Shown piece after piece: positions 7,902 to 61,012 of a DNA stretch of 64,000 bases; position 1 is the first letter of the stretch; every line of letters starts with the position of its first letter. The stretch lies in NCBI GenBank assembly GCA_019637395.1, contig JAHBVR010000012.1, forward strand, positions 65,842 through 129,841. The letters are read 5' to 3'. A program made the position numbers and the translations under genes. The notes under the pieces were generated by a model. It worked only from the letters and a program-made list of their open reading frames with translations. It was not told the DNA's origin and did no database searches. The DNA is from Vulcanimicrobiota bacterium. Lineage in GTDB: Bacteria > Vulcanimicrobiota > Xenobia > Xenobiales > JADMJV01.

Positions 7902-9392
7902 TCAAACCGTGTGTTCGGGGCCCGTGACGGTCTGGATACGCCCCTCCAGCCGGGGCGACACGACCTTGTGATGGTGCAGGTACTCAATCAAGGCAACGCC
8001 CTCGGCGGGAGCGTCGTGTGGCTCCACCAGCAATTTGGCCTGGGGCAGCATCTCGTAACCGCAGCCGCCTTTGCGAATAAACTCGCTGCAGGCAAAGGTA
8101 TAGTCCGCCTCGGGGCGCACCGGCTGACCGGCCACCTGCAACTGAAGCACCCGCTGCCCCGGCAGCCTGGCCGGGTCGTAGCGGATTCGCAGGCGGGAAA
8201 CCTGAGGAAAAGAGTTGCTGTCTGCTCCCAGGACGCTCAGCGAATGCTCCACAACCGCCAGAAGCTCTCGACCACTCAGGCGCACTTTTACTACTCCGTT
8301 CTCGTAGGGCAAGATCATCATGGCCTGGCGCCGCGTCAAGACTCCCGCCGGAACCACCCGATCCACACGGATACTACTGCCGGTAATCAAAGCACAGTCG
8401 GCCCCCGTCTGTTCGCGCATGGCGTCGGCCACCAGATTGCCCAGATTGGTTTCCTGCTGGCGGCACACGGAGGAGCGGCCTTCCAACTCGACCGCCACCT
8501 TGACCAGCGGTTCATCAAGTTGGCGCGCCAGCTGCTCCTCGTAGTGAGCAGCCAGCCGGGTCACCCCGGCCTCGGAGGCCACCGACCTGCCCACGGATAG
8601 CCCTTGCCAATCCATTTCCACGATCCGGCCGCCGTCCACTTGCAAGTCGACTTTGCCCAAAATGCGCGCATCACTGCCCCACTTGAAGATAGGGGTGGCG
8701 CCCACCAGCGATTCGGAGGGTTCGTGCTCGTGCCCGCCTAGAATCAAATCCACCGAAACCTCACGAGCTAACCGCTTATCATCGGCCAGACTGAGGTGAG
8801 TCAGAGCCACTACCACCTGAGCTCCCTGGGAACGCAGGCGGGGCACCAGCAGGCGGGCGGCCTCGACTGGGTCCCGAAAGACCACCTCAGAACCACAGTT
8901 GGAAGTTTCGCCGGTATCCGGGGTGAGCAGGCCGAAAATTCCGACTTTGACACCCCCCACATCGCGCATCACATATTCAGGCATCCTGGCAAACGAGCCG
9001 CCGGCTCGGTCCCGCACGTTAGCGGCCAGCCAGGGAAAATGCGATTCTCCCATGCGCTGGCGCAGCACTTCCGGACCGAAGTCGAATTCATGATTGCCCA
9101 GGGTGGCCACATCCAGGTGGATAGCGTTCCACATCTCGATCATCTGGCGGCCGCGAAAGAAGCTGGAGGCCACCGACGGACTCAGCGTATCCCCGGAAAA
9201 GAGAAAAAGGGTATTGGGGTTGGCCGCCACCGCCTGGCGACGCAGAGTTTCCAGGCGCGCGAAGCTCCCCTTGCGGCCGTCGTCCACGCTGGCATATTCA
9301 TAGACATCGTTGAGGTGCAGCAAGGTAATGTGAGTGGGAGCGGCCAGGACCGGGGAAACCAGGCCCAACCCCAGCAAAAACAAGAGCTTCAT
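7902..9392 (-). CDS. Secreted bifunctional metallophosphatase / 5'-nucleotidase family protein
   Basis: Signal peptide MKLLFLLGLGLVSPVLAA. Calcineurin-like metallophosphoesterase motifs (LHLNDVYE, GDTLSPS, GNHEFDFG, GGHEHE) followed by a 5'-nucleotidase C-terminal domain. The ATG lies 1 nt after the upstream DUF2063 stop (TGAAATG). Confidence 0.8.
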   Translation of the reverse strand: MKLLFLLGLGLVSPVLAAPTHITLLHLNDVYEYASVDDGRKGSFARLETLRRQAVAANPNTLFLFSGDTLSPSVASSFFRGRQMIEMWNAIHLDVATLGNHEFDFGPEVLRQRMGESHFPWLAANVRDRAGGSFARMPEYVMRDVGGVKVGIFGLLTPDTGETSNCGSEVVFRDPVEAARLLVPRLRSQGAQVVVALTHLSLADDKRLAREVSVDLILGGHEHEPSESLVGATPIFKWGSDARILGKVDLQVDGGRIVEMDWQGLSVGRSVASEAGVTRLAAHYEEQLARQLDEPLVKVAVELEGRSSVCRQQETNLGNLVADAMREQTGADCALITGSSIRVDRVVPAGVLTRRQAMMILPYENGVVKVRLSGRELLAVVEHSLSVLGADSNSFPQVSRLRIRYDPARLPGQRVLQLQVAGQPVRPEADYTFACSEFIRKGGCGYEMLPQAKLLVEPHDAPAEGVALIEYLHHHKVVSPRLEGRIQTVTGPEHTV

Positions 9393-9393
9393 T

Positions 9394-10230
9394 TCAGGCT
9401 CGAAAAATGCCCCAATCTCCCCACTGATGGAACCAGCGCTGCAATTCCGGCGCCCCCACCGCTGGAAATTTACGCACCACCCGCTCGACCGCCGGCGCCA
9501 GCTTTTTACCGGAGAACAAATCCCTCAACAGATGAAAGCCGGCTTCGGGCAAGACCACCCGATTCATCTGATAGCCCTGGCGCATGATCAGAATGCGCTG
9601 AGGATGCCTGACCGGCCTGCGAGGCTCCAGTTCGTTGTCGACCTGGTGTAGATAATGCGAGACGGGATAGTCAAATTTCAGCAGGCGTGAGGTGGGCCGA
9701 GGTTGCAGAACCAGTTCGTCCCAGCCCTCGGGCGCAAGCGACTGCAACGCTTCCGGATTCAAGGCCGGCACTTCCGGCTCATCGAATACCTGCGCCAGAT
9801 TCAGCTCCAGAACCGCCAACTGGTGTAAGAAAGTCCGGCCACGCAGAGAGCTGCGCGCGATGTAGGCGGGAAAGTGCAGGCCCAGATGGTTGAGAGTCCA
9901 GCTCGAGGAAGGATGTTCCTCCACATAGCTCATGACCAGCGCTTCGAAAGCTTCCGGCCCAAGGGTGTAGGCCACGCCGGGAAAATCGATCTGCAGCGAC
10001 TCGACCATGCGGAGGGGGAACATGCCGCGGTAAATCCAGAGCCGGCTTTCCGGATCGAGTCCGTAGCCTTCTTTGATAAAATCCCCGGTATTGGCCATGG
10101 CTTCCTCCAGGCGATCGGGGGGACAGGTAACCACTTGCTGGAGCCAGGCCTGCTGCTGGCGCAGACCGTGGGCCTGGACCTTTTGCCGGGAAACGCGCAC
10201 CGGAGCGGGAGAACGCTCGGGGAGCACCAT
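9394..10230 (-). CDS. DUF2063 family protein (MbnC/HvfC-like partner of DUF692)
   Basis: It sits immediately downstream of the DUF692 gene and has the DUF2063-type pattern (QQAWLQQVV...RLWIYRGMFPLRMVESLQIDFPGVAYTLGPEAFEALV...). The track ORF extends into the DUF692 coding region. The real start is either ATG 10230 or TTG 10266 (overlapping the DUF692 TGA as TTGGCTGA). Confidence 0.6.
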   Translation of the reverse strand: MVLPERSPAPVRVSRQKVQAHGLRQQQAWLQQVVTCPPDRLEEAMANTGDFIKEGYGLDPESRLWIYRGMFPLRMVESLQIDFPGVAYTLGPEAFEALVMSYVEEHPSSSWTLNHLGLHFPAYIARSSLRGRTFLHQLAVLELNLAQVFDEPEVPALNPEALQSLAPEGWDELVLQPRPTSRLLKFDYPVSHYLHQVDNELEPRRPVRHPQRILIMRQGYQMNRVVLPEAGFHLLRDLFSGKKLAPAVERVVRKFPAVGAPELQRWFHQWGDWGIFRA

Positions 10231-10258
10231 CCCTTTGGCATTCGAGACGACTTCGCGC

Positions 10259-11104
10259 TCAGCCAACTTTGGACACCACCGGCTTCCGGCAGGTGGCCGC
10301 TTTGAGCACTTCGGCGTGGACCACTTCAAACGGGGGAATTTCCGCATCCCACTCCACCATGGTGGTGCGTGCGCCCAGACGCTGATAGCACTGGGTGTAG
10401 AGCGCCCAGACCTCATCGATGACGTGGTCGTCGTGGGTATCGACGATGTAGGTTCCGTTATTGGTGTGGCCGGAGAGGTGGTGGTAAACCACGTGTTCCC
10501 CAGAGATCTTCTGAATGTATTCCTGGGCGGAAAATCCGTGATTGTAGGAGCTGACATAGACATTATTGACGTCGAGCAACAGGCCGCAGTCGGTTTCTTG
10601 GGTAAGAGCGTTGAGGTAATCCCATTCGGTCAACTGATCCTGGGCCCACTCCAGATAGGTTGAGGGATTCTCCAGAACCAGCGGGACCTCCAGATAGTCC
10701 TGGATTACTTTGAGGCGCCGGCTGACGTGCTCCAGGCTTTCCTGAGTCAGCGGCATCGGCAGCAAGTCGTGGGTATTGCGCCCCAGAATGCCGGTCCAGC
10801 AAAGGTGATCGGAAACCCAGCGGGCTTTGACCAGACCGATCAGATTCTTGAGCAGCTTGAGGTATTCGAAGTCGATCGGGTCGGTGCTGCCCACCGAAAG
10901 AGAAACGCCGTGCAGCAACACCGGATAGCGCTCGGCGATCTGCTCGAGCATGTAAATGGGACGGCCACCCGAACCCATGTAGTTCTCGACGATGATTTCA
11001 AAGAAATCGACCTGGGGCCAGTGCTCTAAAATATGACTGTAGTGCACGGTGCGCAGGCCCATGCCAAATCCCAGGTCCGGAAATCCCCACTTGTTGACGA
11101 TCAT
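10259..11104 (-). CDS. DUF692 / UPF0276 family protein (MbnB-like TIM-barrel di-iron enzyme family)
   Basis: N-terminal signature GFGMGLRTVHYSHILEHWPQVDFFEIIVENYM. Length 281 aa. Confidence 0.8.
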   Translation of the reverse strand: MIVNKWGFPDLGFGMGLRTVHYSHILEHWPQVDFFEIIVENYMGSGGRPIYMLEQIAERYPVLLHGVSLSVGSTDPIDFEYLKLLKNLIGLVKARWVSDHLCWTGILGRNTHDLLPMPLTQESLEHVSRRLKVIQDYLEVPLVLENPSTYLEWAQDQLTEWDYLNALTQETDCGLLLDVNNVYVSSYNHGFSAQEYIQKISGEHVVYHHLSGHTNNGTYIVDTHDDHVIDEVWALYTQCYQRLGARTTMVEWDAEIPPFEVVHAEVLKAATCRKPVVSKVG

Positions 11105-13448: not shown

Positions 13449-13530
13449 TAGAGGCCTTGGACCGCTTCGGAACCACTGTTAGAGGGAATGGACCTGGATG
13501 GCCAAGGGCGGAGCGGTGGAGGTTGGCTTG

Positions 13531-14234
13531 TGAAGATCGTGCAACTGGCTATCGCCATGCTGATGGGGGTGAGCCTTGGATTGGGCCTGGCGCTGGCGAT
13601 GCTGCAAGCGCAGAACGCCAGGACGGCCCGGAGTCCGCTGAACGCAGCTCAACAGGCCCGCTTGAGTCAGTTGATGCAGCTGAAACAGCGTGGAGGAACC
13701 GCGTTTCTGGGCGATTCACTGACTGAGAACTTCCCCTTGGACCAGTACTTCCAGGACTCGGGACTGGTTAACCTGGGGCTATCGGGGGATACCATCGGCG
13801 GGGCAGGACCCCTGGGCTGTCTGGAACGGCTGGATCAGGGGGTCACGCAGTTGCAGCCGGAGCGAATTGTGTTGCTCATCGGCATCAACGACCTGCTCTT
13901 GAGCCGCTACGAAGACGGCCTGGGGGCGAAGCTGGATCGCTACGAGGCGCTGGAGATCCGCCTGCGCAAAAGGCTGCCGCAGGCTCAACTATGCCTGGTG
14001 TCGCTCCTGCCCACGAGCGGAGAGTTCGCCTACGTCAATCCCGAAATTCTGGTCTTCAATCAGCAAATCCGCCGGCTGGCGGAACGCGACCACGCCCTCT
14101 ACATTGATGCTTACCAGGCCTTTGGCAAGCTGTCACCCGACGACTCCCCGGACGGAATGCACCTCAGCCCACTGGGCTACCGCCGCCTGGCCGAGACGTA
14201 CGCCCGGGCCCTGGGCCTGAAGCTACGCAAGTAG
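13531..14234 (+). CDS. SGNH/GDSL hydrolase family protein (membrane-anchored or secreted)
   Basis: Block I FLGDSLTENF, DGxH-like block DGMHLSPLGY, and an N-terminal hydrophobic anchor. Likely start is GTG 13531 with GGAGG 7 nt upstream (the track ORF begins at 13488). Confidence 0.7.
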
Positions 14235-14299
14235 GCTCGCGCCAAACAGCCTCCCAAGCCAGGTTCGCCTCCAAGCAGGCGGGGTCCGTCCGGGGGTAG

Positions 14300-15634
14300 C
14301 TACCTGCTCAGATAGGAGCGGGCCCAGTCCAGGGCGGCCCGGTCGGCCGGGTTTTCCAAGCCGGGAGTGCTGGTGGCCGATTGCAGGCCGCTGACGATGA
14401 GTTTTCGGAATTCTTGGAAAGCCGGCCCGGGCGCTTGGAGGACGGGCATGTGGTCGAAAGCCGGGCCTTCACCGCGGTTCAGCGCCAGAAAATGGCGGCA
14501 GCCCTCGCTGGCGGGAGGGATTTCCTGGCCGTAAACCTCGCTCAGAACCCAGGCTCGTTTGGCGCCGGTTTCGCCGCCAGCGTGCAAATAAAGATCGGGA
14601 TTCTTTTTGATCTGATCCCAGTTCTTCAGGACGTCAGCGTGGGTCTCGGCGAAGTCTTCGCGCGGGTCCCCCAAACTTCCGTAGGGAGTGACCGAGTCAC
14701 CTTTGCCGAAAGGGGAGTCGGCCCGCTGTGAATAGCCTCCCAGGTTGTCGACCAGATGGCCCATTTCGTGGAAAAGCACCCAACGGGTGGTTTCGCTGGT
14801 ATCGGTCACAGAGCGGCGCAGCACGGCGGTGGGATAGCCGGCGAAAACCTGACCGTTGGTAACAGTCTCCGGTCCCTCGGGCAAAGGGGCGGATTCCAAC
14901 ACCACCAGACTGCAAGCTTCCAGCGCCTTCGGGCAGCGCTCCTTGACATAAGAAAGCGCCTGGCTGAGGTGCTCGCGTTCGCGCTCGTTGCGACATCCGG
15001 AGATCTGGATTCCTTCGTGAGCAAAGCTTTCTGAAGAGGTAGCGGAGGCCAGCACGGTGGCCACCACGTTGCCGGAGAGCTGCTGGAGCTTCTCGGTATC
15101 AAAGTCCTGAAGAATGCTCATCAGAGCCGGGCTGAGCGGCCCGGCTCCGCTGCTGGCACTGAGAAAACTCAAGTATTCACCCTGCCGGGCCAGGCCCTTG
15201 GCGCCTTCGGAGACGGACAGACTCTTCAAATCGAAGACGCCGTTGACCCGACTCAACTCGACCTGGGAAGGTGCGTTTGGGTTAGCGCCCAGACTGCGTT
15301 CAAACAGACTCAAGGCGGTCGACTCCACCACCAACGGTTCCAGTTCCACAAACATTGAACCCCAGGCGGACTGAGTCATCTGCTCTCCCGCCCTGGCCAC
15401 TATCTGGCGGGCCTTTTCGCGAAAAGGATCGGCCGGGTTCTTCAACTTTTCGAGGGGAGCCGGTTCGGGCTCGGCCATCGGCCCATAGGCAGTATTCACC
15501 GGCACGCTGGCAGCCAGACGTTGGGCCGTCAGCATGACATGGTCAGCCGGCATCTCCTCCGCTACCGGCGCTACGGAGCGAGGGATGGGACGCATCGTCG
15601 GGCCGTTCAGCGGACCACGAATGGGATCGATCAC
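14300..15634 (-). CDS. Putative zinc metalloprotease (HExxH motif) / hypothetical
   Basis: HEMGHLVD motif plus a downstream acidic EDFAE. No other family assignment possible by eye. Confidence 0.45.
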   Translation of the reverse strand: MIDPIRGPLNGPTMRPIPRSVAPVAEEMPADHVMLTAQRLAASVPVNTAYGPMAEPEPAPLEKLKNPADPFREKARQIVARAGEQMTQSAWGSMFVELEPLVVESTALSLFERSLGANPNAPSQVELSRVNGVFDLKSLSVSEGAKGLARQGEYLSFLSASSGAGPLSPALMSILQDFDTEKLQQLSGNVVATVLASATSSESFAHEGIQISGCRNEREREHLSQALSYVKERCPKALEACSLVVLESAPLPEGPETVTNGQVFAGYPTAVLRRSVTDTSETTRWVLFHEMGHLVDNLGGYSQRADSPFGKGDSVTPYGSLGDPREDFAETHADVLKNWDQIKKNPDLYLHAGGETGAKRAWVLSEVYGQEIPPASEGCRHFLALNRGEGPAFDHMPVLQAPGPAFQEFRKLIVSGLQSATSTPGLENPADRAALDWARSYLSR

Positions 15635-15676
15635 CCCCTGAGTTTCGCGCTCCTTCGATGCAGGCCTCTTCCCTCG

Positions 15677-16705
<1,029 letters not shown>

Positions 16706-16872
16706 TTACGAGATGCGCTTAGCATAGTCTCGTCCGGATCCATGGTGGTAGACCATTTCCGCAGGCACCTTGCCTATTCGTGCAACGAGGTGTCACGTGG
16801 GGGCAATCGCGCAAGCACGATCAGCCGCTCTAAAACGCGGGAAAGTCGGGGGTCACGCGGAATGCCTGGTGG

Positions 16873-17310
16873 ATGAAAGCCGCGCGAATCTTTTTGAGCC
16901 TGGCCTGGTTCGGTATCGCCCCATTGTGGGCGACCGAGGGGAATGACTGCTTTACCCGGTGGGCCTTTCACTACGGCGTGATACTCTCCATGGCGCTGGC
17001 CTTTTTTTCGGGCTGGCTCTACCATTGGGTGGGTTACCACTTGGTGTCGTTCCAGCACCGGAAGAACGCGGCCTATCTGAGCGCGCTGATCTTTGTGCCG
17101 CTGCTCGCTTTGCTCGGGTCGGGCGGGCTCAGCGAAATCTGGGCCAGTCAGGCAGATCCCGATTACTATCGGCGCAACGGCGTCGGTCCGGTGAATATCG
17201 TAGCTCTGTTGGCTCAATCCGCGGGAATCTTCATGAGCTGGTTTCATTATTGGAGAAGTCGAAAGCGCACGGAAGGCGCGTTGTCCTGGGTGGATTCCGA
17301 GAGCCTTTGA
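16873..17310 (+). CDS. Hypothetical membrane protein
   Basis: Four predicted TM segments and good codon bias. Confidence 0.4.
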   Translation: MKAARIFLSLAWFGIAPLWATEGNDCFTRWAFHYGVILSMALAFFSGWLYHWVGYHLVSFQHRKNAAYLSALIFVPLLALLGSGGLSEIWASQADPDYYRRNGVGPVNIVALLAQSAGIFMSWFHYWRSRKRTEGALSWVDSESL

Positions 17311-17442
17311 GCAAAGCGGGTTCTAGCCGCTCCAGGCCGTGGGGCTCGTAAGGTGGACTTGACGGCAAATAAATTTCGTCGTAAATTACATTTACACAGT
17401 TAACAGACAGAACCCCATCGTCGAGACGAAAGGTCACATCAG

Positions 17443-18012
17443 ATGCTCCTCCTACCTCTCGGACTTTCCGTTTACGCTCTGGGTCTGGGCGCGGCCTCGC
17501 GTTACTTTTTCGGCAAATACCTGGTTTACGGTCACCATCCGGGAATACTCTACCTGGCGGGGTTGGTACTCAGCCTCTGTCTTTGTCCCTGGGGTGCGCA
17601 GACTGTCTATGCTCGATTCTGGTCGGTGCTGGCCAGCTTCTTCACCGCCTTGACCGCCACGCTCACAGCCTTTCTTTACCTGGTGATGAAGCGCAACTAC
17701 GAGCGCTACTGGTTTCTCGTCATCGTCCTGGCCGTCTGCGTCGGAGTTCCCCTGCTGGCCCTGGCGGTGACCTCCCCAGTGTTGCTTTTCGTTTATCATA
17801 TGGCCCTGGCTCTCGGTCGCCGCTACTTCCCGCTGCTGGCCCTGGAAGGACTCGTGTTTTTGGGCCTGTGCCTTTTCCGCATCTACGGGGCCTACCATCC
17901 AGAATACGAACTCATGGCCTTCCGAGCCTTTGGCTACTGGTGTATTAGCTATAGTCTCACCCTGCTCGGTCTGGCCCTCAGCTACTACCTCCACCCCCAC
18001 AAGCCGACTTAG
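17443..18012 (+). CDS. Hypothetical polytopic membrane protein
   Basis: Six hydrophobic segments. A candidate promoter TTGACG-17-TAAATT lies at ~17362-17396. Ends with a TAG stop at 18010-18012. Confidence 0.45.
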   Translation: MLLLPLGLSVYALGLGAASRYFFGKYLVYGHHPGILYLAGLVLSLCLCPWGAQTVYARFWSVLASFFTALTATLTAFLYLVMKRNYERYWFLVIVLAVCVGVPLLALAVTSPVLLFVYHMALALGRRYFPLLALEGLVFLGLCLFRIYGAYHPEYELMAFRAFGYWCISYSLTLLGLALSYYLHPHKPT

Positions 18013-18180
18013 GGCTCGGCGCTTGATAAGGTGGGCGTTTCGGCGCCAGATGGCGTGAGGAGGAACGACAAGGCGTATCGGGTTATCGGTGCGGAGTTGC
18101 GACGCAGCGGGTGGGGATGGATCTGGCGCCCAAACGTCTGAGTTATTAAGCGACGGGTCCTTAACTGAAGGAGGACCTAG
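18013..18180 (+). repeat. Conserved intergenic element, copy A (candidate 3'-UTR sRNA or miniature repeat); inverted partner at 48122..48296
   Basis: The ~97-nt core at 18064..18160 is ~98% identical to the reverse complement of 48136..48236. The flanks are partly conserved. The element starts directly at the TAG stop of the upstream gene. Confidence 0.6.
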
Positions 18181-18186
18181 GAATCG

Positions 18187-18544
18187 CTTGATTTGGCCGA
18201 TAGCCAGCTCACTGATTGGGCTTCTAATCTTGGGAGCCTGTGGGAAAGAACCGCCTAAACGTTTCGGCAATAAAGTGACTGCCTATGGCGCTCCGGAATG
18301 CACCAGCAATCTGAAGAATATCGGCACCGCTTTAGAAATGTATAAAATGGATCACAGCCTGGCTCAGCTGGTTCCTCAATATTTCAAGGCCCTGCCCACC
18401 TGCCCCGCCGTGCAAAGTGACACGTATCCGGCAAGTTACCAACTGAAAGGCAGCCGCTACGAGTTTTGCTGCCGGGGTAACAACCACGACTTCGGAGGTG
18501 ATCGGCCGTCCTATTCCAGCGACGGAGGGTGCATCACCCGCTAG
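18187..18544 (+). CDS. Small Cys-rich lipoprotein (hypothetical)
   Basis: TTG start preceded by AGGA. Lipobox LILGAC. Six Cys in ~120 aa. Confidence 0.45.
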
Positions 18545-18622
18545 CGAGGACGCTCGCACGGTAACCCTGGCCCTCCAATCCTTGGCTGGCTTAAGTCATA
18601 CCTCAGAAAAGCCTCAGCCAAT

Positions 18623-19678
18623 TTGGTAGGGCCCGACGAGGTCGAGCGAGAAGCGCTGCCCTGGCCCATGAGACATCAACCAACCGAAGAAACCGCCAAG
18701 GCGGATGAAGCCTTTAAAAAGCGCCATTGGAAGGACGCGGAAGACTCTTTCCAACGCATCCTGACCCGAGTTCCCGAGCACATCGAGGCCTATCTGGGCC
18801 TGTTCGAAACCCAGGCGGTGTTGGGCCACTTCACCTCCAGTGTGCAGACGCTCTGGCAAGCGGTCGAGATCTGCGAGCAGACCAATCAGCTCGAACAAGG
18901 CCTGGAGATCATCGCCCGCATCCTGGAACTCAAACCGCATCACGAGCAGGCTCTACAAAAGCGCATCGATCTGCTCTTCGGTAACCAGCGCAACAGCGAG
19001 GCCGTGGCCTTCTCGCGTGATTTGGCCCAGTGGTATCTGGAAAACGACAACGTCGACGCGGCCATTCGCCTGCTTTTGCGGGCCTTCCAAATCAACCACG
19101 ACGATCTGGAGCTGACCCTGGTGCTGGCCGAGGCCTACCTCACCAACGGCCAGATGCGCGAAGCCACCGGGCTCTTTCGTCAGGTTATCCCCCACTTTCT
19201 GGAAGCCCAGGACTGGGAAAAAGCGGCCGGGATCATGCGCAGGCTCAGCCTCATGGACCCGAAAGATCCGCGCAACTTCATGGAGATGGGCGACCTCTAT
19301 ATCAAACTCGAACGTTATCAGGAAGCGGACCAGCAGTTCCGAGCGGTGTTGCGCATCGACCTGAACCATCGCGAAGCCCTGTTGAAAATCGCTGAAGTCT
19401 CGCTGCTGCGCAAACTTTTCCGAGATGCCTCGATGGTCTATAACCGACTTATCACCCTCAGTTCGGATGATGCGGAAGCCCACGAAGGCCTGGGCATGGT
19501 TTACAAAGGTCAGGGCATGCAGGCGGACGCGGCCAAACACTTGTTGATGGCCGGTCTGGCTTTCGCCGACAAAGACGTCAAGGCCCGCGCCCACAGCTGT
19601 TTCGCGGCCGTGCTGGAGATCGATCCGGCCAACAACATCGCTTCGCGTCAAATGAAAATTCTGGCTCCGGGAGTCTAA
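18623..19678 (+). CDS. TPR repeat protein
   Basis: Multiple 34-aa TPR-like repeats (AYLGL...W..A...Y...G....A...F). Start is uncertain (possibly ATG 18668). Confidence 0.65.
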   Translation: MVGPDEVEREALPWPMRHQPTEETAKADEAFKKRHWKDAEDSFQRILTRVPEHIEAYLGLFETQAVLGHFTSSVQTLWQAVEICEQTNQLEQGLEIIARILELKPHHEQALQKRIDLLFGNQRNSEAVAFSRDLAQWYLENDNVDAAIRLLLRAFQINHDDLELTLVLAEAYLTNGQMREATGLFRQVIPHFLEAQDWEKAAGIMRRLSLMDPKDPRNFMEMGDLYIKLERYQEADQQFRAVLRIDLNHREALLKIAEVSLLRKLFRDASMVYNRLITLSSDDAEAHEGLGMVYKGQGMQADAAKHLLMAGLAFADKDVKARAHSCFAAVLEIDPANNIASRQMKILAPGV

Positions 19679-47893: not shown

Positions 47894-47921
47894 GCCCCGC
47901 CGGCACGGAGGGATGGAACGA

Positions 47922-48074
47922 ATGACAGAGCCAATTTTCGAACTTCGCTTTCAAGAACTGATTGGGGAGCGTCCCATCGTCAAAGAAGGCAGCCGCTCGG
48001 CCGTCATCTTTCTGCAGGCCCTCTTTGAGGTGGCCGGCGAGTTTTACGAAGAAGAAGAGGACGAGGCGGCCTGA
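47922..48074 (+). CDS. Small acidic protein, ~50 aa (hypothetical, unlisted ORF)
   Basis: MTEPIFELRFQELIGERPIVKEGSRSAVIFLQALFEVAGEFYEEEEDEAA, with GGAGG ~10 nt upstream and a strong terminator immediately after. Confidence 0.3.
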   Translation: MTEPIFELRFQELIGERPIVKEGSRSAVIFLQALFEVAGEFYEEEEDEAA

Positions 48075-48082
48075 TCAACGCG

Positions 48083-48121
48083 AAAAAAATCGACCGGGAA
48101 GTTTCTCCCCGGTCGATTTTT
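48083..48121. terminator. Bidirectional rho-independent terminator
   Basis: AAAAAAAT-CGACCGGG-aagtttctc-CCCGGTCG-ATTTTT: an 8-bp GC-rich stem with A-runs and T-runs on the two sides. Confidence 0.75.
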
Positions 48122-48296
48122 GCCGGAGGAGCTTAGGACCCGTCGCTTAATAACTCAGACGTTTGGGCGCCAGCTCCATCCCCACCCGCTGCGTCGCAAC
48201 TCCGCACCGTATAACCCGATACGCCTTGTCGTTGCTCCTTGCGGGAGGGGCGCCTCTGGCACCGAAACGCCCACCTTATTAAGCGCCGGGCCCCTA
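48122..48296 (-). repeat. Conserved intergenic element, copy B (reverse orientation)
   Basis: The reverse complement of 48136..48236 matches 18064..18160 with one indel and one mismatch. The element begins at the TAG stop (48294-48296) of the minus-strand ligase gene and ends at the bidirectional terminator. Confidence 0.6.
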
Positions 48297-52432: not shown

Positions 52433-53554
52433 CTACGTGGGGATTTGGCCGGTAGTCAGGCGGAAAACAGCGCGCGCCGTGCTTTTCAATCCCTCGAGCT
52501 GACTTTCCAACGAATCAGCCGGCACGTTCGCCAAAGCCTGGGCGAGCATTTCGAACTGGCGCGAGTTGATCTGGAAGCGCCGGGCCATGGCCGGATTCCA
52601 ATGGGCCAGCAGGCGGTCGCGGTCGGGCAGCTCGGCCTTGGGCAAGCCCAATTGGCCGGCTATCTGCTGGTCGAACCGGGTATCTTTGCCCACGTCGGCC
52701 AGGAAGGTGGGAGTAAATTTCAATGAGCCGGCCAGGCCCATGTTCAGCTCCTGAGCTAATCCCTGCACCGATTCCACGGCCATATCGAAGCTGTGGGCGT
52801 AGAAACCGGCCTGATCGGCAAAACGCAGCGCCAGTCCGTCGCGCATTATCTCGACTTGCTTCTCGGGGGGGAGCTGCTGAAGTAGTTCCTGGTAGACCTG
52901 GACTGAACTCTGGCCGTCGTAGCGGGTGCCCATGGCGGCTTTGGGCTGGTCGTCGAAGGGAAAGTCGCTACGGGCCACCAGAGCCTTGGCTTCGATAAAC
53001 TGCTCCGGACTCCAGCCGAAACGCCCGCTCAGTTCCTCTTGCTGCTGCTCCATCCACTCCAACGTCACCTGGGCCCGGGCCGGGGTGCCCGTTTTGACTT
53101 CGCCGCTGTCCACCTGACTGCGATCGTCGGCGTCATGGAGCAGGGCGACCTGCTGGATGAACTGCTTGCGTTCGGGCGACCAACCCAAACCCTGGCCGAA
53201 AGCACCGGCTGCCTCGGCCACCACCAGCGGGTGATCAAAGTTATGGTAAGTTCCACTATTGAGTGCTTGAAACTCGGTGCTGCTGAAATAGCGCGAGGCC
53301 AGCTCGGCTACGCCGGAGCAGGCAGTGCCGTGCCAGCTGGCCTCAGCTCCTCGGGCCAACTGTTCGGCCTTAGGGTTGACCAGCGAAGCGGCCGGCTCCC
53401 ACTTTAACGTCCTGGGTGGGAGATCCCATGGCTGAGCGCTCTCAGCCGAACATCCCGTTTCAAAAGTTGGCGCAGCCGCGGCGGAGTTTGCTCTCGGGCA
53501 ACCCTTGGGGAGGGAGGTGAGGCGAGGCAGGGTCAGGTTGCTGATGATGGCCAT
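52433..53554 (-). CDS. HD-motif domain protein, paralog 1 (uncharacterised family)
   Basis: The track ORF (to 53980) has an implausible N-terminus. The ATG at 53554 has SD AAGGAG 8 nt upstream. H...HD motifs YHNFDHP / ALLHDADDR. Shares a strongly conserved core with the gene at 60047..61012. Confidence 0.6.
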   Translation of the reverse strand: MAIISNLTLPRLTSLPKGCPRANSAAAAPTFETGCSAESAQPWDLPPRTLKWEPAASLVNPKAEQLARGAEASWHGTACSGVAELASRYFSSTEFQALNSGTYHNFDHPLVVAEAAGAFGQGLGWSPERKQFIQQVALLHDADDRSQVDSGEVKTGTPARAQVTLEWMEQQQEELSGRFGWSPEQFIEAKALVARSDFPFDDQPKAAMGTRYDGQSSVQVYQELLQQLPPEKQVEIMRDGLALRFADQAGFYAHSFDMAVESVQGLAQELNMGLAGSLKFTPTFLADVGKDTRFDQQIAGQLGLPKAELPDRDRLLAHWNPAMARRFQINSRQFEMLAQALANVPADSLESQLEGLKSTARAVFRLTTGQIPT

Positions 53555-60046: not shown

Positions 60047-61012
60047 TTATAGGGAATGTCCCTCCTTCTGTAAGGCCAGAAACGCCTCTCGTCGGTTGGG
60101 CGACAGAGCCCCCAGCAGAATGTCGCGGGTCGCAAAATCTCCGCTGGGAACAGCCAGGTCATCGGCAATCTTCCAATCCTCGGCCATGTCCAATCCAGCG
60201 GCCCGCAAAAAATCCGGGCTGCCCTTGGCCAGTTGCTCATTGGTGATGTTGATCCCGACGCCGCGCATCTCATCGCCCAGGCCGGCGATGTAGCGGGCGG
60301 ACTGCTCGGCGTCCACGGTGTAATTGCCGGTCTGATCGGCGAAGCGCAAAATCAACCCATCTTCCATGGTCTGCTGACGGCGCTCTTCGGGCACCGCCGC
60401 CAGCAGGTTCTGATAGAGCATGATCGGACTCTGGCCATCGTAACGGGTAGACAGGTTCTTGGGCTTCTCGTCAAAGGGAAAATCAGTGCGGGCGATTAGC
60501 GCCTTGGCCTCGGCAAAATCCGCGCTGTTCCAGCCGAAACGGCCACCCAGGGCCTCCTGATTACGGTCCATCCATTCCAGCGTCACCGGGGCCCGGGCCG
60601 GAGAGACGGCGCTACTCTGGCCGATGCGTTCATCCACGTCGTGCAGCAGGGCCACCTGCTGTAGAAACTCGGCGCGCTCCGGGCTACGCCCCAAATTCCC
60701 AGCGACCTCCGCCACCGTGTTGGCCACATGAACCGGATGCTCCTGATCGTGGTAGTGGCCCGGATTGAGCCTGGCCCACTCCCCCACCGTGAAGTAGCGC
60801 AGCACCAGAGCCGGCAAGCTCCCGTTGGCGGTGGCCGCCGATTGCGCCGCCGCTTCCCCCGAGCGGGCCAGCCGGGCTGCGCCGCCCACTTCCAGCGGCT
60901 GCCCATTCAAAGAGACCAGGTCGAGACATTCCGGCTCAACCGCCGGGACAGAAGGGCGGGAAGCTGTTGGGGGATGACAAACGGGGCTCTTGAACAGAGG
61001 TTGAATAGTCAT
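60047..61012 (-). CDS. HD-motif domain protein, paralog 2
   Basis: YHDQEHPVHV / ALLHDVDER. Strongly conserved core shared with 52433..53554 (FLQQVALLHD, VTLEWM, RFGW, FAEAKAL.AR.DFPFD, TRYDGQS, DGL.LRFADQ). Confidence 0.6.
   Translation of the reverse strand: MTIQPLFKSPVCHPPTASRPSVPAVEPECLDLVSLNGQPLEVGGAARLARSGEAAAQSAATANGSLPALVLRYFTVGEWARLNPGHYHDQEHPVHVANTVAEVAGNLGRSPERAEFLQQVALLHDVDERIGQSSAVSPARAPVTLEWMDRNQEALGGRFGWNSADFAEAKALIARTDFPFDEKPKNLSTRYDGQSPIMLYQNLLAAVPEERRQQTMEDGLILRFADQTGNYTVDAEQSARYIAGLGDEMRGVGINITNEQLAKGSPDFLRAAGLDMAEDWKIADDLAVPSGDFATRDILLGALSPNRREAFLALQKEGHSL

What the first reader, a model, noticed from the sequence alone, without database searches (positions are those of the whole stretch)
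18010..18180. Conserved ~165-nt intergenic element, copy A, beginning exactly at a TAG stop codon
Positions 18064..18160 match the reverse complement of 48136..48236 with one single-nucleotide indel and one mismatch, about 98% identity over ~97 nt. That is far above the surrounding intergenic similarity. The 5' flank (ggctcggcgcttgataaggtgggcgtttcggcgccaga) is also about 85% conserved. In both copies the element starts directly at the TAG stop of an unrelated upstream gene: a polytopic membrane protein here, the YbdK ligase at the other locus. It is co-oriented with that gene. Copy A ends in a GGTCC...GGACC hairpin that embeds the GGAGG ribosome-binding site of the downstream lipoprotein gene, where copy B carries CCTCC at the corresponding position. 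Copy B ends at a canonical terminator. That pattern suggests either a 3'-UTR-derived small RNA, a cis-regulatory RNA, or a miniature mobile repeat that targets stop-codon-proximal sites.
Basis: seen in the sequence. Interest (0 to 1): 0.7.

Follow-up and report, generated by a model that had tools for sequence, protein, structure and literature searches.

The report
Small mobile repeat inserted at stop codons
The two near-identical ~150-nt intergenic elements are copies of a miniature non-coding transposon (a MITE) that landed exactly in the TAA stop codons of two unrelated genes in an uncultured Vulcanimicrobiota bacterium; this is an ordinary kind of element in a little-studied phylum, not a new RNA gene.

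Summary
Copy A (18012-18160, +) and copy B (48136-48293, -) share about 89% identity over 159 nt, with a 96-98% identical core. Similarity stops exactly at the element ends. No other copy lies in the window and no Rfam family matches.

Each copy has imperfect ~38-40-nt terminal inverted repeats and folds into a long rod hairpin. Each is flanked by a short duplicated target: TTA/TTA for A and TAG/TAA for B, so at least TA.

Related genomes with 90% YbdK identity lack copy B. L004 reads ATC-TAA-GCGGCCTCCGGC where the window reads ATC-TAG-[158 nt]-TAA-GCTCCTCCGGC. That is a clean insertion into the stop codon.

Removing copy A restores ACT-TAA-CTGAAGGAGG, a tight operon junction with an unchanged protein end. 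Copy A also lies in a 5.15-kb block missing from relatives.

Break points of independent short-read assemblies suggest at least one more copy outside the window.

Best reading: a non-autonomous DNA transposon, most like IS5/PIF-Harbinger ("Tourist-like") or IS630-type MITEs. The RBS hairpin and the terminator are flanking DNA, not part of the element. A selected RNA-level role in the 3' UTR remains possible but unshown.

Verdict: new member of a known kind, low to moderate interest.

The parts
18012..18160 (+). Copy A of the MITE (149 nt, GGGCTCGG...CGGGTCC)
   Evidence: The fold is a rod hairpin of -71.8 kcal/mol. Excising it restores ACT-TAA-CTGAAGGAGG.
18009..18011 (+). Left target-site duplication of copy A (TTA). 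Its TA plus the element's first G form the present TAG stop of the 189-aa membrane protein.
   Evidence: Read directly; reconstructed.
18161..18163 (+). Right target-site duplication of copy A (TTA)
   Evidence: Read directly; reconstructed.
18012..18051 (+). Left terminal inverted repeat of copy A
   Evidence: It pairs with 18121-18160 in the fold. The end signature CGCTTRATAANNNNGNCGTTTNGGNGCCAG matches at 18020-18049.
18121..18160 (+). Right terminal inverted repeat of copy A
   Evidence: Fold. The end signature matches on the minus strand at 18123-18152.
48136..48293 (-). Copy B of the MITE (158 nt, GGGCCCGG...CGGGTCC)
   Evidence: Boundaries. It is absent from L004, L005 and L029 at the orthologous place. 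It is 100% identical in a 99.5%-identical strain, L033.
48294..48296 (-). Left flank triplet of copy B (TAG, the ybdK stop codon). Under a 3-bp model it is the left copy of a TAA duplication with one A-to-G change. Under a 2-bp model it is TA plus one extra G.
   Evidence: L004 has TAA at this position.
48133..48135 (-). Right target-site duplication of copy B (TAA), followed by flank GCTCCTCCGGC, which is orthologous to L004 GCGGCCTCCGGC
48255..48293 (-). Left terminal inverted repeat of copy B
48136..48173 (-). Right terminal inverted repeat of copy B
48085..48121 (.). Not part of the element. This is a bidirectional intrinsic terminator hairpin (AAAAATCGACCGGGGAGAAACTTCCCGGTCGATTTTT) between the convergent ybdK and a 50-aa ORF. 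It sits where relatives carry a DUF72 gene.
18170..18190 (+). Not part of the element. This is the pre-existing RBS GGAGG (18170-18174) and TTG start (18188-18190) of the downstream lipoprotein gene (signal peptide MIWPIASSLIGLLILGAC).
   Evidence: It lies outside the A/B similarity.

Best explanation
The two sequences are copies of a miniature inverted-repeat transposable element (MITE). A MITE is a 150-160-bp non-coding derivative of a DNA transposon that is moved in trans by a DDE transposase encoded elsewhere.

Inferred mechanism: the transposase binds the ~38-nt imperfect terminal inverted repeats (termini GGGCYCGG... / ...CGGGTCC), makes a staggered cut at a T(T/A)A (minimally TA) target, and repair duplicates that target.

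In this 60% G+C genome such A/T targets that can tolerate an insertion are scarce, and TAA stop codons supply them. Both surviving copies sit in a former TAA stop. A stop codon is still read (TAG), so neither upstream protein is changed.

Because both copies lie in sense orientation just after a gene, they are probably transcribed as long 3'-UTR or intercistronic hairpins. Any effect of that on mRNA stability or on translation of the downstream lipoprotein gene is inference only.

Shown here: repeat identity, inverted repeats, target duplication, an empty orthologous site, and unrelated flanks. Inferred: the transposase family (IS5/PIF-Harbinger-like preferred, IS630-like possible), further copies, and transcription.
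For: 1. Similarity is confined to the element. The flanks are an unrelated membrane-protein/lipoprotein operon and a ybdK locus, in opposite orientation 30 kb apart.

2. The inverted ends are related. One 30-nt signature matches all four ends and nothing else in the window, with 0.00 expected by chance. The two arms pair over ~36 bp.

3. There is an empty site for copy B.
- L004 (YbdK 91% identical) aligns with the window up to the stop codon and resumes beyond it.
- L004 reads ATC TAA GCGGCCTCCGGC. The window reads ATC TAG [158 nt] TAA GCTCCTCCGGC.
- With the element and one triplet removed the two align straight through the junction.
- 12 of the 14 bases after the TAA are identical. By my own binomial estimate that is about 3e-6 by chance at a fixed position.
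- L005 and L029 also lack the element.

4. Copy A is flanked by TTA on both sides. Excising it gives ...CCG ACT TAA CTGAAGGAGG..., the same C-terminus (HPHKPT*) and an RBS 5 nt after the stop, as expected for an operon junction.

5. Copy A lies in a 5.15-kb block (about 13450-18604) missing from two related lineages. Both copies are therefore lineage-specific and recent.

6. Break points of Logan contigs from independent samples were compared with what the A/B repeat alone predicts. Logan's k = 31 is my own knowledge.
- Left of A the observed end matches the prediction (18116).
- Left of B the contigs end at 48264 in five samples; A/B alone predicts 48180.
- Right of A the contigs start at 18134 in four samples; A/B alone predicts 18132.
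- These fit at least one more sequence sharing the exact termini GGGCCCGGCG... and ...GGGTCCTTA but with other flanks.

7. There is no Rfam family at any threshold that matters.

8. These traits are the published hallmarks of bacterial MITEs: under 200 bp, TIRs, TA-containing termini or targets, target duplication, and a stem-loop formed by 5'-3' end pairing (PMC2229807).

9. A 3-bp TTA/TAA duplication with GGG(Y)CCG... termini is the PIF/Harbinger-IS5 pattern (PMC2213677 and PMC4482050). IS1031-group IS5 elements use a 3-nt target (PMC2516522).
Against: - Only two copies could be read directly. A MITE family normally has many, and the further copies are only inferred from assembly break points, which co-occurring strain variants could also produce.
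- No autonomous element with the same ends was found. Both genome-contig scans are spent: the first, an exact 20-mer from the element, found nothing, and the second was a protein search with YbdK, so the collection was never searched with the end signature. Both scans of metagenome contigs (the 20-mer and the degenerate end signature) also found nothing. Scans of viral contigs with DNA patterns gave one chance match inside coding sequence and otherwise nothing. A blastn search of plasmids gave no match.
- The exact size of the duplication is ambiguous. A 3-bp model needs one A-to-G change in copy B. A 2-bp TA model needs a 1-nt length difference at one end of each copy.
- There is no empty site for copy A, because relatives lack the whole block.
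- The 38-nt arms are longer than typical IS5 or IS630 inverted repeats.
Confidence: 0.85

Rival explanations
1. Exapted RNA module. The element spread by transposition but is retained because its sense-strand transcript does something useful. The long 3'-UTR or intercistronic hairpin could protect the upstream mRNA from 3' exonucleases, be cut by RNase III to uncouple the two cistrons, or give rise to a small RNA.
For: - Both copies are in sense orientation directly behind a gene.
- The sense strand folds much better than the antisense strand: -71.8 vs -45.0 kcal/mol for A and -94.8 vs -70.6 for B. It has 8-9 G-U pairs against 1 on the antisense strand.
- All three A/B substitutions in the 5' arm keep pairing on the sense strand: C-G to U-G, G-U to A-U, and C-G to U-G.
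- Both insertions are at stop codons, although only about 12% of non-coding TWA sites overlap a stop. That is roughly 0.015 for two out of two, from a crude gene call.
- Correia/NEMIS and ERIC elements have such roles (PMC2229807).
Against: - Shuffled controls show that most of the strand difference is base composition: the z-scores are -4.55 vs -3.80.
- Two copies in sense orientation has a chance probability of 0.25.
- Copy A lost 8 nt and with it the 5' strand of the apical helix, so the full rod is not maintained.
- The element is absent from close relatives, so it is not needed at these genes.
- No expression data are available.
Confidence: 0.15
2. A non-mobile small RNA or cis-regulatory RNA gene present in two paralogous copies, for example a 3'-UTR-derived sRNA or a 6S-like rod RNA.
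For: The predicted structure is rod-like and stable: z = -4.6 for A, and -7.8 for B folded together with the terminator. Copy B is followed by a terminator.
Against: - No Rfam match even at E = 10 for copy A, and only terminator-driven chance hits for copy B.
- The element is missing from orthologous sites in relatives, with a clean empty site and a duplicated target.
- No promoter-like site was found in or before either copy.
- The terminator is outside the repeat.
Confidence: 0.03
3. A remnant of a segmental duplication or gene conversion between the two loci.
For: Only two copies were read, and they are 30 kb apart in inverted orientation.
Against: Identity drops to nothing exactly at the element ends on both sides. 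The flanking genes are unrelated. Each copy has its own flanking duplication.
Confidence: 0.01
4. An integron attC-type or other site-specific recombination site, which also lies just after a cassette ORF and folds as an imperfect palindrome.
For: It sits immediately after a stop codon, is co-oriented with the ORF, and is an imperfect palindrome with strand asymmetry.
Against: - ybdK is a syntenic core gene, not a cassette.
- The insertion added only the 158 nt and no ORF.
- The ends lack the RYYYAAC / GTTRRRY core sites, as read directly.
- There is no array.
- No integrase appears among the neighbouring genes whose Pfam hits were listed in related loci. The window's own ORFs were not systematically scanned.
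Confidence: 0.01

Closest known systems
Tourist-like MITEs of the PIF/Harbinger-IS5 superfamily (bacterial side: IS5 family, IS1031/ISL2/IS427 groups)
   Same: - It is small and non-coding, with inverted ends.
- The flanking triplets are TTA/TTA and TAG/TAA, matching the 3-bp TTA/TAA (TWA) duplication of PIF/Harbinger (PMC2213677, PMC4482050). The IS1031 group also uses a 3-nt target (PMC2516522).
- The termini GGGCYCGG / GGACCCGT resemble published PIF-type ends such as GGGTCCGTTTGG and GGGCCTGTTTG.
   Different: - No cognate transposase or full-length element was found.
- The G(N)5GTT end motif is only partly present (GGACCCGTC).
- The arms are ~38 nt rather than 14-25 nt.
- One triplet of copy B departs from a perfect duplication.
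- The end resemblance was read by eye and was not tested statistically.
RUP of Streptococcus pneumoniae (MITE mobilised by IS630-Spn1) and other TA-duplicating IS630/Tc1-mariner derivatives
   Same: It is a non-coding intergenic repeat of about 100-160 bp with inverted ends, and it inserts at a TA with duplication (PMC2229807). Both copies here are flanked by TA.
   Different: A pure TA model leaves a 1-nt length difference at one end of each copy. There is no sequence similarity to RUP, and no IS630-type partner was identified.
Correia/NEMIS elements of Neisseria and ERIC/IRU elements of enterobacteria
   Same: They are 100-170-bp imperfect palindromes in transcribed intergenic DNA. They are co-transcribed with neighbouring genes and form a rod hairpin by 5'-3' end pairing. 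Correia elements have TA ends and are cut by RNase III (PMC2229807).
   Different: - The sequence and the phylum are unrelated.
- This element is G+C-rich, whereas most of those are A+T-rich.
- Copy number appears low here.
- No RNA-level effect has been shown.
Integron attC sites / Vibrio VCR repeats
   Same: They are imperfect palindromes placed right after a stop codon in the sense orientation.
   Different: There are no core sites, no cassette structure, no array and no integrase. The insertion brought no ORF.

Membership tests
Bacterial MITE (non-autonomous DNA transposon) | Small size (under ~300 bp) and no coding capacity | tested here: met
   The copies are 149 and 158 nt. No ORF is confined to the element, and the ORFs crossing it are read-throughs or antisense artefacts.
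Bacterial MITE (non-autonomous DNA transposon) | Terminal inverted repeats | tested here: met
   The arms of ~38-40 nt are about 74% alike when reverse-complemented. One 30-nt signature hits all four ends, with 0.00 expected by chance.
Bacterial MITE (non-autonomous DNA transposon) | Target-site duplication flanking each copy | tested here: met
   Copy A has TTA|...|TTA. Copy B has TAG|...|TAA, so TA is shared and the 3-bp version has one mismatch.
Bacterial MITE (non-autonomous DNA transposon) | Filled versus empty sites among related genomes | tested here: met
   For copy B, L004, L005 and L029 are empty, and L004 aligns across the junction. Copy A cannot be tested because the whole block is absent in relatives.
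Bacterial MITE (non-autonomous DNA transposon) | Multiple dispersed copies in one genome | tested here: inconclusive
   Two copies lie in unrelated contexts in 64 kb. Further copies are only inferred from k = 31 contig break points in 4-5 samples. The rest of the genome was not available.
Bacterial MITE (non-autonomous DNA transposon) | A full-length transposon with the same ends that supplies the transposase | tested here: inconclusive
   No such ends occur elsewhere in the window or in 287 kb of related loci. The end signature is absent from metagenome contigs and viral contigs, and a blastn of copy B found nothing in plasmids. Genome contigs was searched only with one exact 20-mer, and the source genome is not in that collection.
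IS5 / PIF-Harbinger-derived (Tourist-like) MITE | 3-bp TWA (TTA/TAA) duplication | tested here: inconclusive
   Copy A is perfect (TTA/TTA). Copy B is TAG/TAA, which needs one substitution. Two copies are too few to decide (criteria).
IS5 / PIF-Harbinger-derived (Tourist-like) MITE | Ends matching those of an IS5/PIF-type transposon (e.g. G(N)5GTT) | tested here: inconclusive
   GGACCCGTC and GGGCYCGGC match only part of the motif (read; motif). No partner element was available for comparison.
IS630 / Tc1-mariner-derived MITE (RUP-like) | TA duplication and ends matching an IS630-family element | tested here: inconclusive
   TA is present on both sides of both copies, but the element length then differs by 1 nt at the ends. 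No IS630 partner was available.
Any described RNA family (Rfam 15), including 6S RNA, riboswitches and sRNAs | Covariance-model score at or near the family threshold | tested here: not met
   There are no hits at gathering score in the whole window. Copy A has none at E <= 10. Around copy B there are only three sub-threshold hits, each spanning or lying wholly within the terminator region downstream of the element (E 1.9-10, bits far below gathering).
3'-UTR-derived small RNA | Conservation at the orthologous 3' UTR in related genomes | tested here: not met
   The element is absent downstream of ybdK in L004, L005 and L029.
Integron attC site | R''/R' core sites (RYYYAAC ... GTTRRRY), cassette array and integrase | tested here: not met
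   The ends read GGGCYCGG... and ...GCGACGGGTCC. The sites are single, 30 kb apart and inverted. ybdK is a syntenic core gene.

The most novel reading that the evidence does not exclude
The element is not just junk. It would be a mobile 3'-end module that lands specifically in stop codons, keeps a stop codon in place, and installs a strand-specific, G-U-rich RNA hairpin that alters the stability or processing of the host mRNA. It would then be kept in sense orientation by selection, in a phylum where no regulatory RNA or mobile repeat has been characterised.
Probability: 0.12. Interest if true: 0.55.

Novelty: new member of a known kind. Interest (0 to 1): 0.25.

Why it matters
- **Annotation.** The element explains two odd intergenic regions, and probably several assembly breaks, in Vulcanimicrobiota (Eremiobacterota/WPS-2) genomes. 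This is an uncultured phylum whose mobile elements are essentially undescribed.
- **Use as a marker.** The element's ends and target give a handle for finding its transposase and for strain typing.
- **Insertion without damage.** It is a tidy example of a transposon inserting into a stop codon without harming the gene. The duplicated TA plus the element's first G, or the duplicated TAA itself, still gives a stop.
- **Possible effect on expression.** If the sense-strand hairpin affects mRNA fate, the element would also be a natural tool for studying 3'-end control in these bacteria.
- **Overall.** It does not open a new class of biology.

Tried and rejected
- **Rfam.** I scanned the whole window at gathering score and ran permissive scans around each copy. 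Nothing meaningful came up.
- **Exact 20-mer from the 3' arm.** It gave 0 hits in genome contigs and in metagenome contigs.
- **Degenerate end signature matching all four ends.** It gave 0 hits in metagenome contigs and in viral contigs.
- **Other viral scans.** One gave a single hit that turned out to be a chance match inside coding sequence. Another gave nothing.
- **Plasmids.** A blastn search of the plasmid collection found no match.
- **Homologues of the 189-aa membrane protein.** I used them to look for an empty site for copy A. They are only 56-62% identical and lie in a different gene neighbourhood, so they are not orthologous loci.
- **TPR-gene orthologues.** They showed that relatives lack the entire 5.15-kb block, so no empty site for copy A exists in the data.
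- **MAFFT alignment of filled versus empty sites.** MAFFT placed the gap wrongly, matching L004's G+C-rich post-stop bases to the element's start. The ungapped flank comparison and a pairwise alignment after excision are the valid tests.
- **nhmmer and blastn against 287 kb of fetched loci.** They found only the same two copies in the same strain.
- **Ideas considered and dropped.** These were 6S-like RNA, retron or CRISPR-type repeats, REP/BIME (too long, and has a target duplication), attC, and segmental duplication.
- **Strand asymmetry of folding.** It looked like evidence for RNA-level selection at first, but shuffled controls show that base composition explains most of it.

Full report
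**1. The observation**

- Copy A on the + strand and copy B on the - strand align over about 160 nt.
- The repeat finder reports an 80-nt arm pair at 96% and a 39-nt pair at 92%. blastn gives 88.7% over 159 nt, E = 3e-55.
- Exact shared runs are 18064-18086, 18087-18121 and 18123-18161. That is one 1-nt indel and one mismatch in the core.
- Between the 5' arm and the core is a divergent patch where copy B has 8 extra bases.
- Both copies start at the G of a TAG stop and are co-oriented with the gene that ends there. For copy A the gene is a 189-aa polytopic membrane protein with no significant Pfam family. For copy B it is YbdK/GCS2.
- No third copy lies in the window.

**2. Anatomy**

- Each copy has imperfect terminal inverted repeats of ~38-40 nt. 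One 30-nt signature, CGCTTRATAANNNNGNCGTTTNGGNGCCAG, matches all four ends and nothing else, with 0.00 expected by chance.
- As single strands the copies fold into long rods. Copy A has MFE -74.2 kcal/mol, z = -4.55. Copy B with the neighbouring terminator has -122.2 kcal/mol, z = -7.84.
- Copy B is paired almost to its tip. Copy A has lost the 5' strand of the apical helix through the 8-nt difference.
- No Rfam family matches, not even permissively.

**3. Organism and relatives**

- Protein-guided searches place the window in an uncultured Vulcanimicrobiota (Eremiobacterota) bacterium.
- Relatives with 90-92% identical YbdK are syntenic with the window on both sides of ybdK (L004, L005, L029), but they lack the element.
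- Instead, a convergent DUF72 gene follows ybdK in these relatives.

**4. The decisive comparison (copy B)**

- L004 reads ...GCC ATC TAA GCGGCCTCCGGC....
- The window reads ...GCT ATC TAG [GGGCCC...158 nt...GGGTCC] TAA GCTCCTCCGGC....
- After removing the element and one triplet, the two align straight across the junction.
- 12 of the 14 bases after the TAA agree. By my binomial estimate this is about 3e-6 by chance at a fixed position.
- Copy B is therefore a clean insertion into the TAA stop codon, with the target duplicated.
- Beyond those 14 bases the window has a 37-nt bidirectional terminator where the relatives have the DUF72 gene. That is a separate event and not part of the element.

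**5. Copy A**

- The flanks are CCGAC TTA [GGGCTC...GGGTCC] TTA ACTGAAGGAGG.
- Excision restores CCG ACT TAA CTGAAGGAGG. The protein end (HPHKPT*) is unchanged, and the lipoprotein's RBS follows the stop by 5 nt, as in a normal operon junction.
- No empty site could be found. Relatives at 89-92% TPR-protein identity lack the whole 5.15-kb block (about 13450-18604) that carries copy A.
- Both copies are thus lineage-specific.
- A 99.5%-identical strain from another sample (L033) has copy B unchanged.

**6. Size of the duplication**

- A 3-bp T(T/A)A model gives both copies identical termini (GGGCYCGG...CGGGTCC). It gives a perfect TTA/TTA for copy A but needs one A-to-G change in the left triplet of copy B (TAG vs TAA); both are stop codons.
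- A 2-bp TA model needs a 1-nt length difference at one end of each copy.
- Two copies cannot settle this. I slightly prefer the 3-bp model.

**7. More copies?**

- Logan contigs (k = 31, from my own knowledge) from the same strain break at fixed points in independent samples.
- Left of copy A the break (18116) is exactly what the A/B repeat predicts.
- Left of copy B the contigs stop at 48264 in five samples. A/B alone predicts 48180.
- Right of copy A the contigs start at 18134 in four samples. A/B alone predicts 18132.
- These breaks fit another sequence that shares GGGCCCGGCGCTTAATAAGGTGGGCGTTTCG, preceded by a base other than G, and ...GGGTCCTTA, with different flanks. That would be at least one further copy outside the window.
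- Co-occurring strain variants could mimic this, so it is suggestive only.

**8. Searches elsewhere**

- An exact 20-mer and the degenerate end signature found nothing in metagenome contigs.
- The 20-mer found nothing, and the second scan was a protein search with YbdK, so that collection never saw the end signature.
- DNA patterns scanned against viral contigs and a blastn search of plasmids gave nothing real.
- The source genome is not in those collections, so the family looks narrow or rare. Its transposase remains unidentified.

**9. Mechanism**

- The features match the published definition of bacterial MITEs: under 200 bp, inverted ends, TA-containing targets, target duplication, and a stem-loop made by end pairing (PMC2229807).
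- A TTA/TAA triplet duplication with GGG(Y)CCG-type termini is the PIF/Harbinger-IS5 pattern (PMC2213677, PMC4482050, PMC2516522).
- A TA duplication would instead point to IS630, as for RUP.
- I commit to a non-autonomous DDE-transposon derivative moved in trans. I rate IS5/PIF-like as more likely than IS630-like, roughly 55:35.

**10. Why stop codons?**

- In a crude gene call of the window, 389 TWA sites lie inside genes, 121 are intergenic and 17 overlap a stop codon.
- Two of two insertions at stop codons has a probability of about 0.015 if all non-coding sites were equal.
- This hints at selection for harmless 3'-end positions or at a wider target preference. With n = 2 it is weak.

**11. 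RNA-level role**

- The sense strand folds better than the antisense strand and has 8-9 G-U pairs against 1.
- The three arm substitutions between copy A and copy B all keep pairing.
- Shuffled controls show that composition accounts for most of the energy gap.
- Copy A has lost its apical helix, and relatives do without the element.
- A selected 3'-UTR function is possible (about 0.15) but unshown.

**12. Verdict**

- The finding is real and well bounded. It is explained as a MITE, a new member of a known kind in a poorly known phylum.

Noticed in passing
window 13450-18604: This 5.15-kb block holds six genes plus MITE copy A: a GDSL lipase, a 444-aa ORF, an aldo-keto reductase, a 145-aa ORF, the 189-aa membrane protein and the lipoprotein. 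It is absent from two related lineages (L017, L035), where the 582/584-aa gene is followed after ~60 nt by the TPR gene. The block begins right after the TAA stop of the 571-aa gene.
   Followed up: partly
window 48077-48132 versus L004 11180-12065: Relatives (L004, L005, L029) carry a 295-aa DUF72 gene between ybdK and the 50-aa ORF, overlapping the latter's stop. In the window it is replaced by a 37-nt bidirectional terminator hairpin (48085-48121). The replacement starts 14 nt from the MITE, so it is a separate event next to the insertion.
   Followed up: partly
Logan contigs L001-L003, L013-L016, L024-L028, L030-L032 (ends at window 18116, 18134, 48264, 48160/48164): Independent short-read assemblies of this strain all break inside the element. 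Three of the five break points are not those predicted from copies A and B alone. This implies another copy or allele sharing the exact termini. One inferred partner shares ...GGGTCCTAAGC, which may be a co-occurring strain with copy B but a different downstream flank.
   Followed up: partly
window 52941-53083 and 60459-60601: A 143-nt direct repeat at 75% identity, 7.5 kb apart. The same region of L004/L005 cross-matches window ~60400-60680. It is probably a pair of paralogous coding segments.
   Followed up: no
window 7902-11104 (minus strand): A three-gene run: Metallophos/5'-nucleotidase, HvfC_N (DUF2063) and MbnB/TglH/ChrH (DUF692). It resembles the gene pairs that modify small copper- or metal-binding peptides. 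It is conserved in the relatives (Pfam labels).
   Followed up: no
window 18623-19678 and 47913-48074: The mechanical ORF starts are too long. The database gene for the TPR protein starts 15 codons in (336 aa). ybdK starts at M6 (384 aa). The small ORF is recorded as 50 aa starting at 47922.
   Followed up: yes
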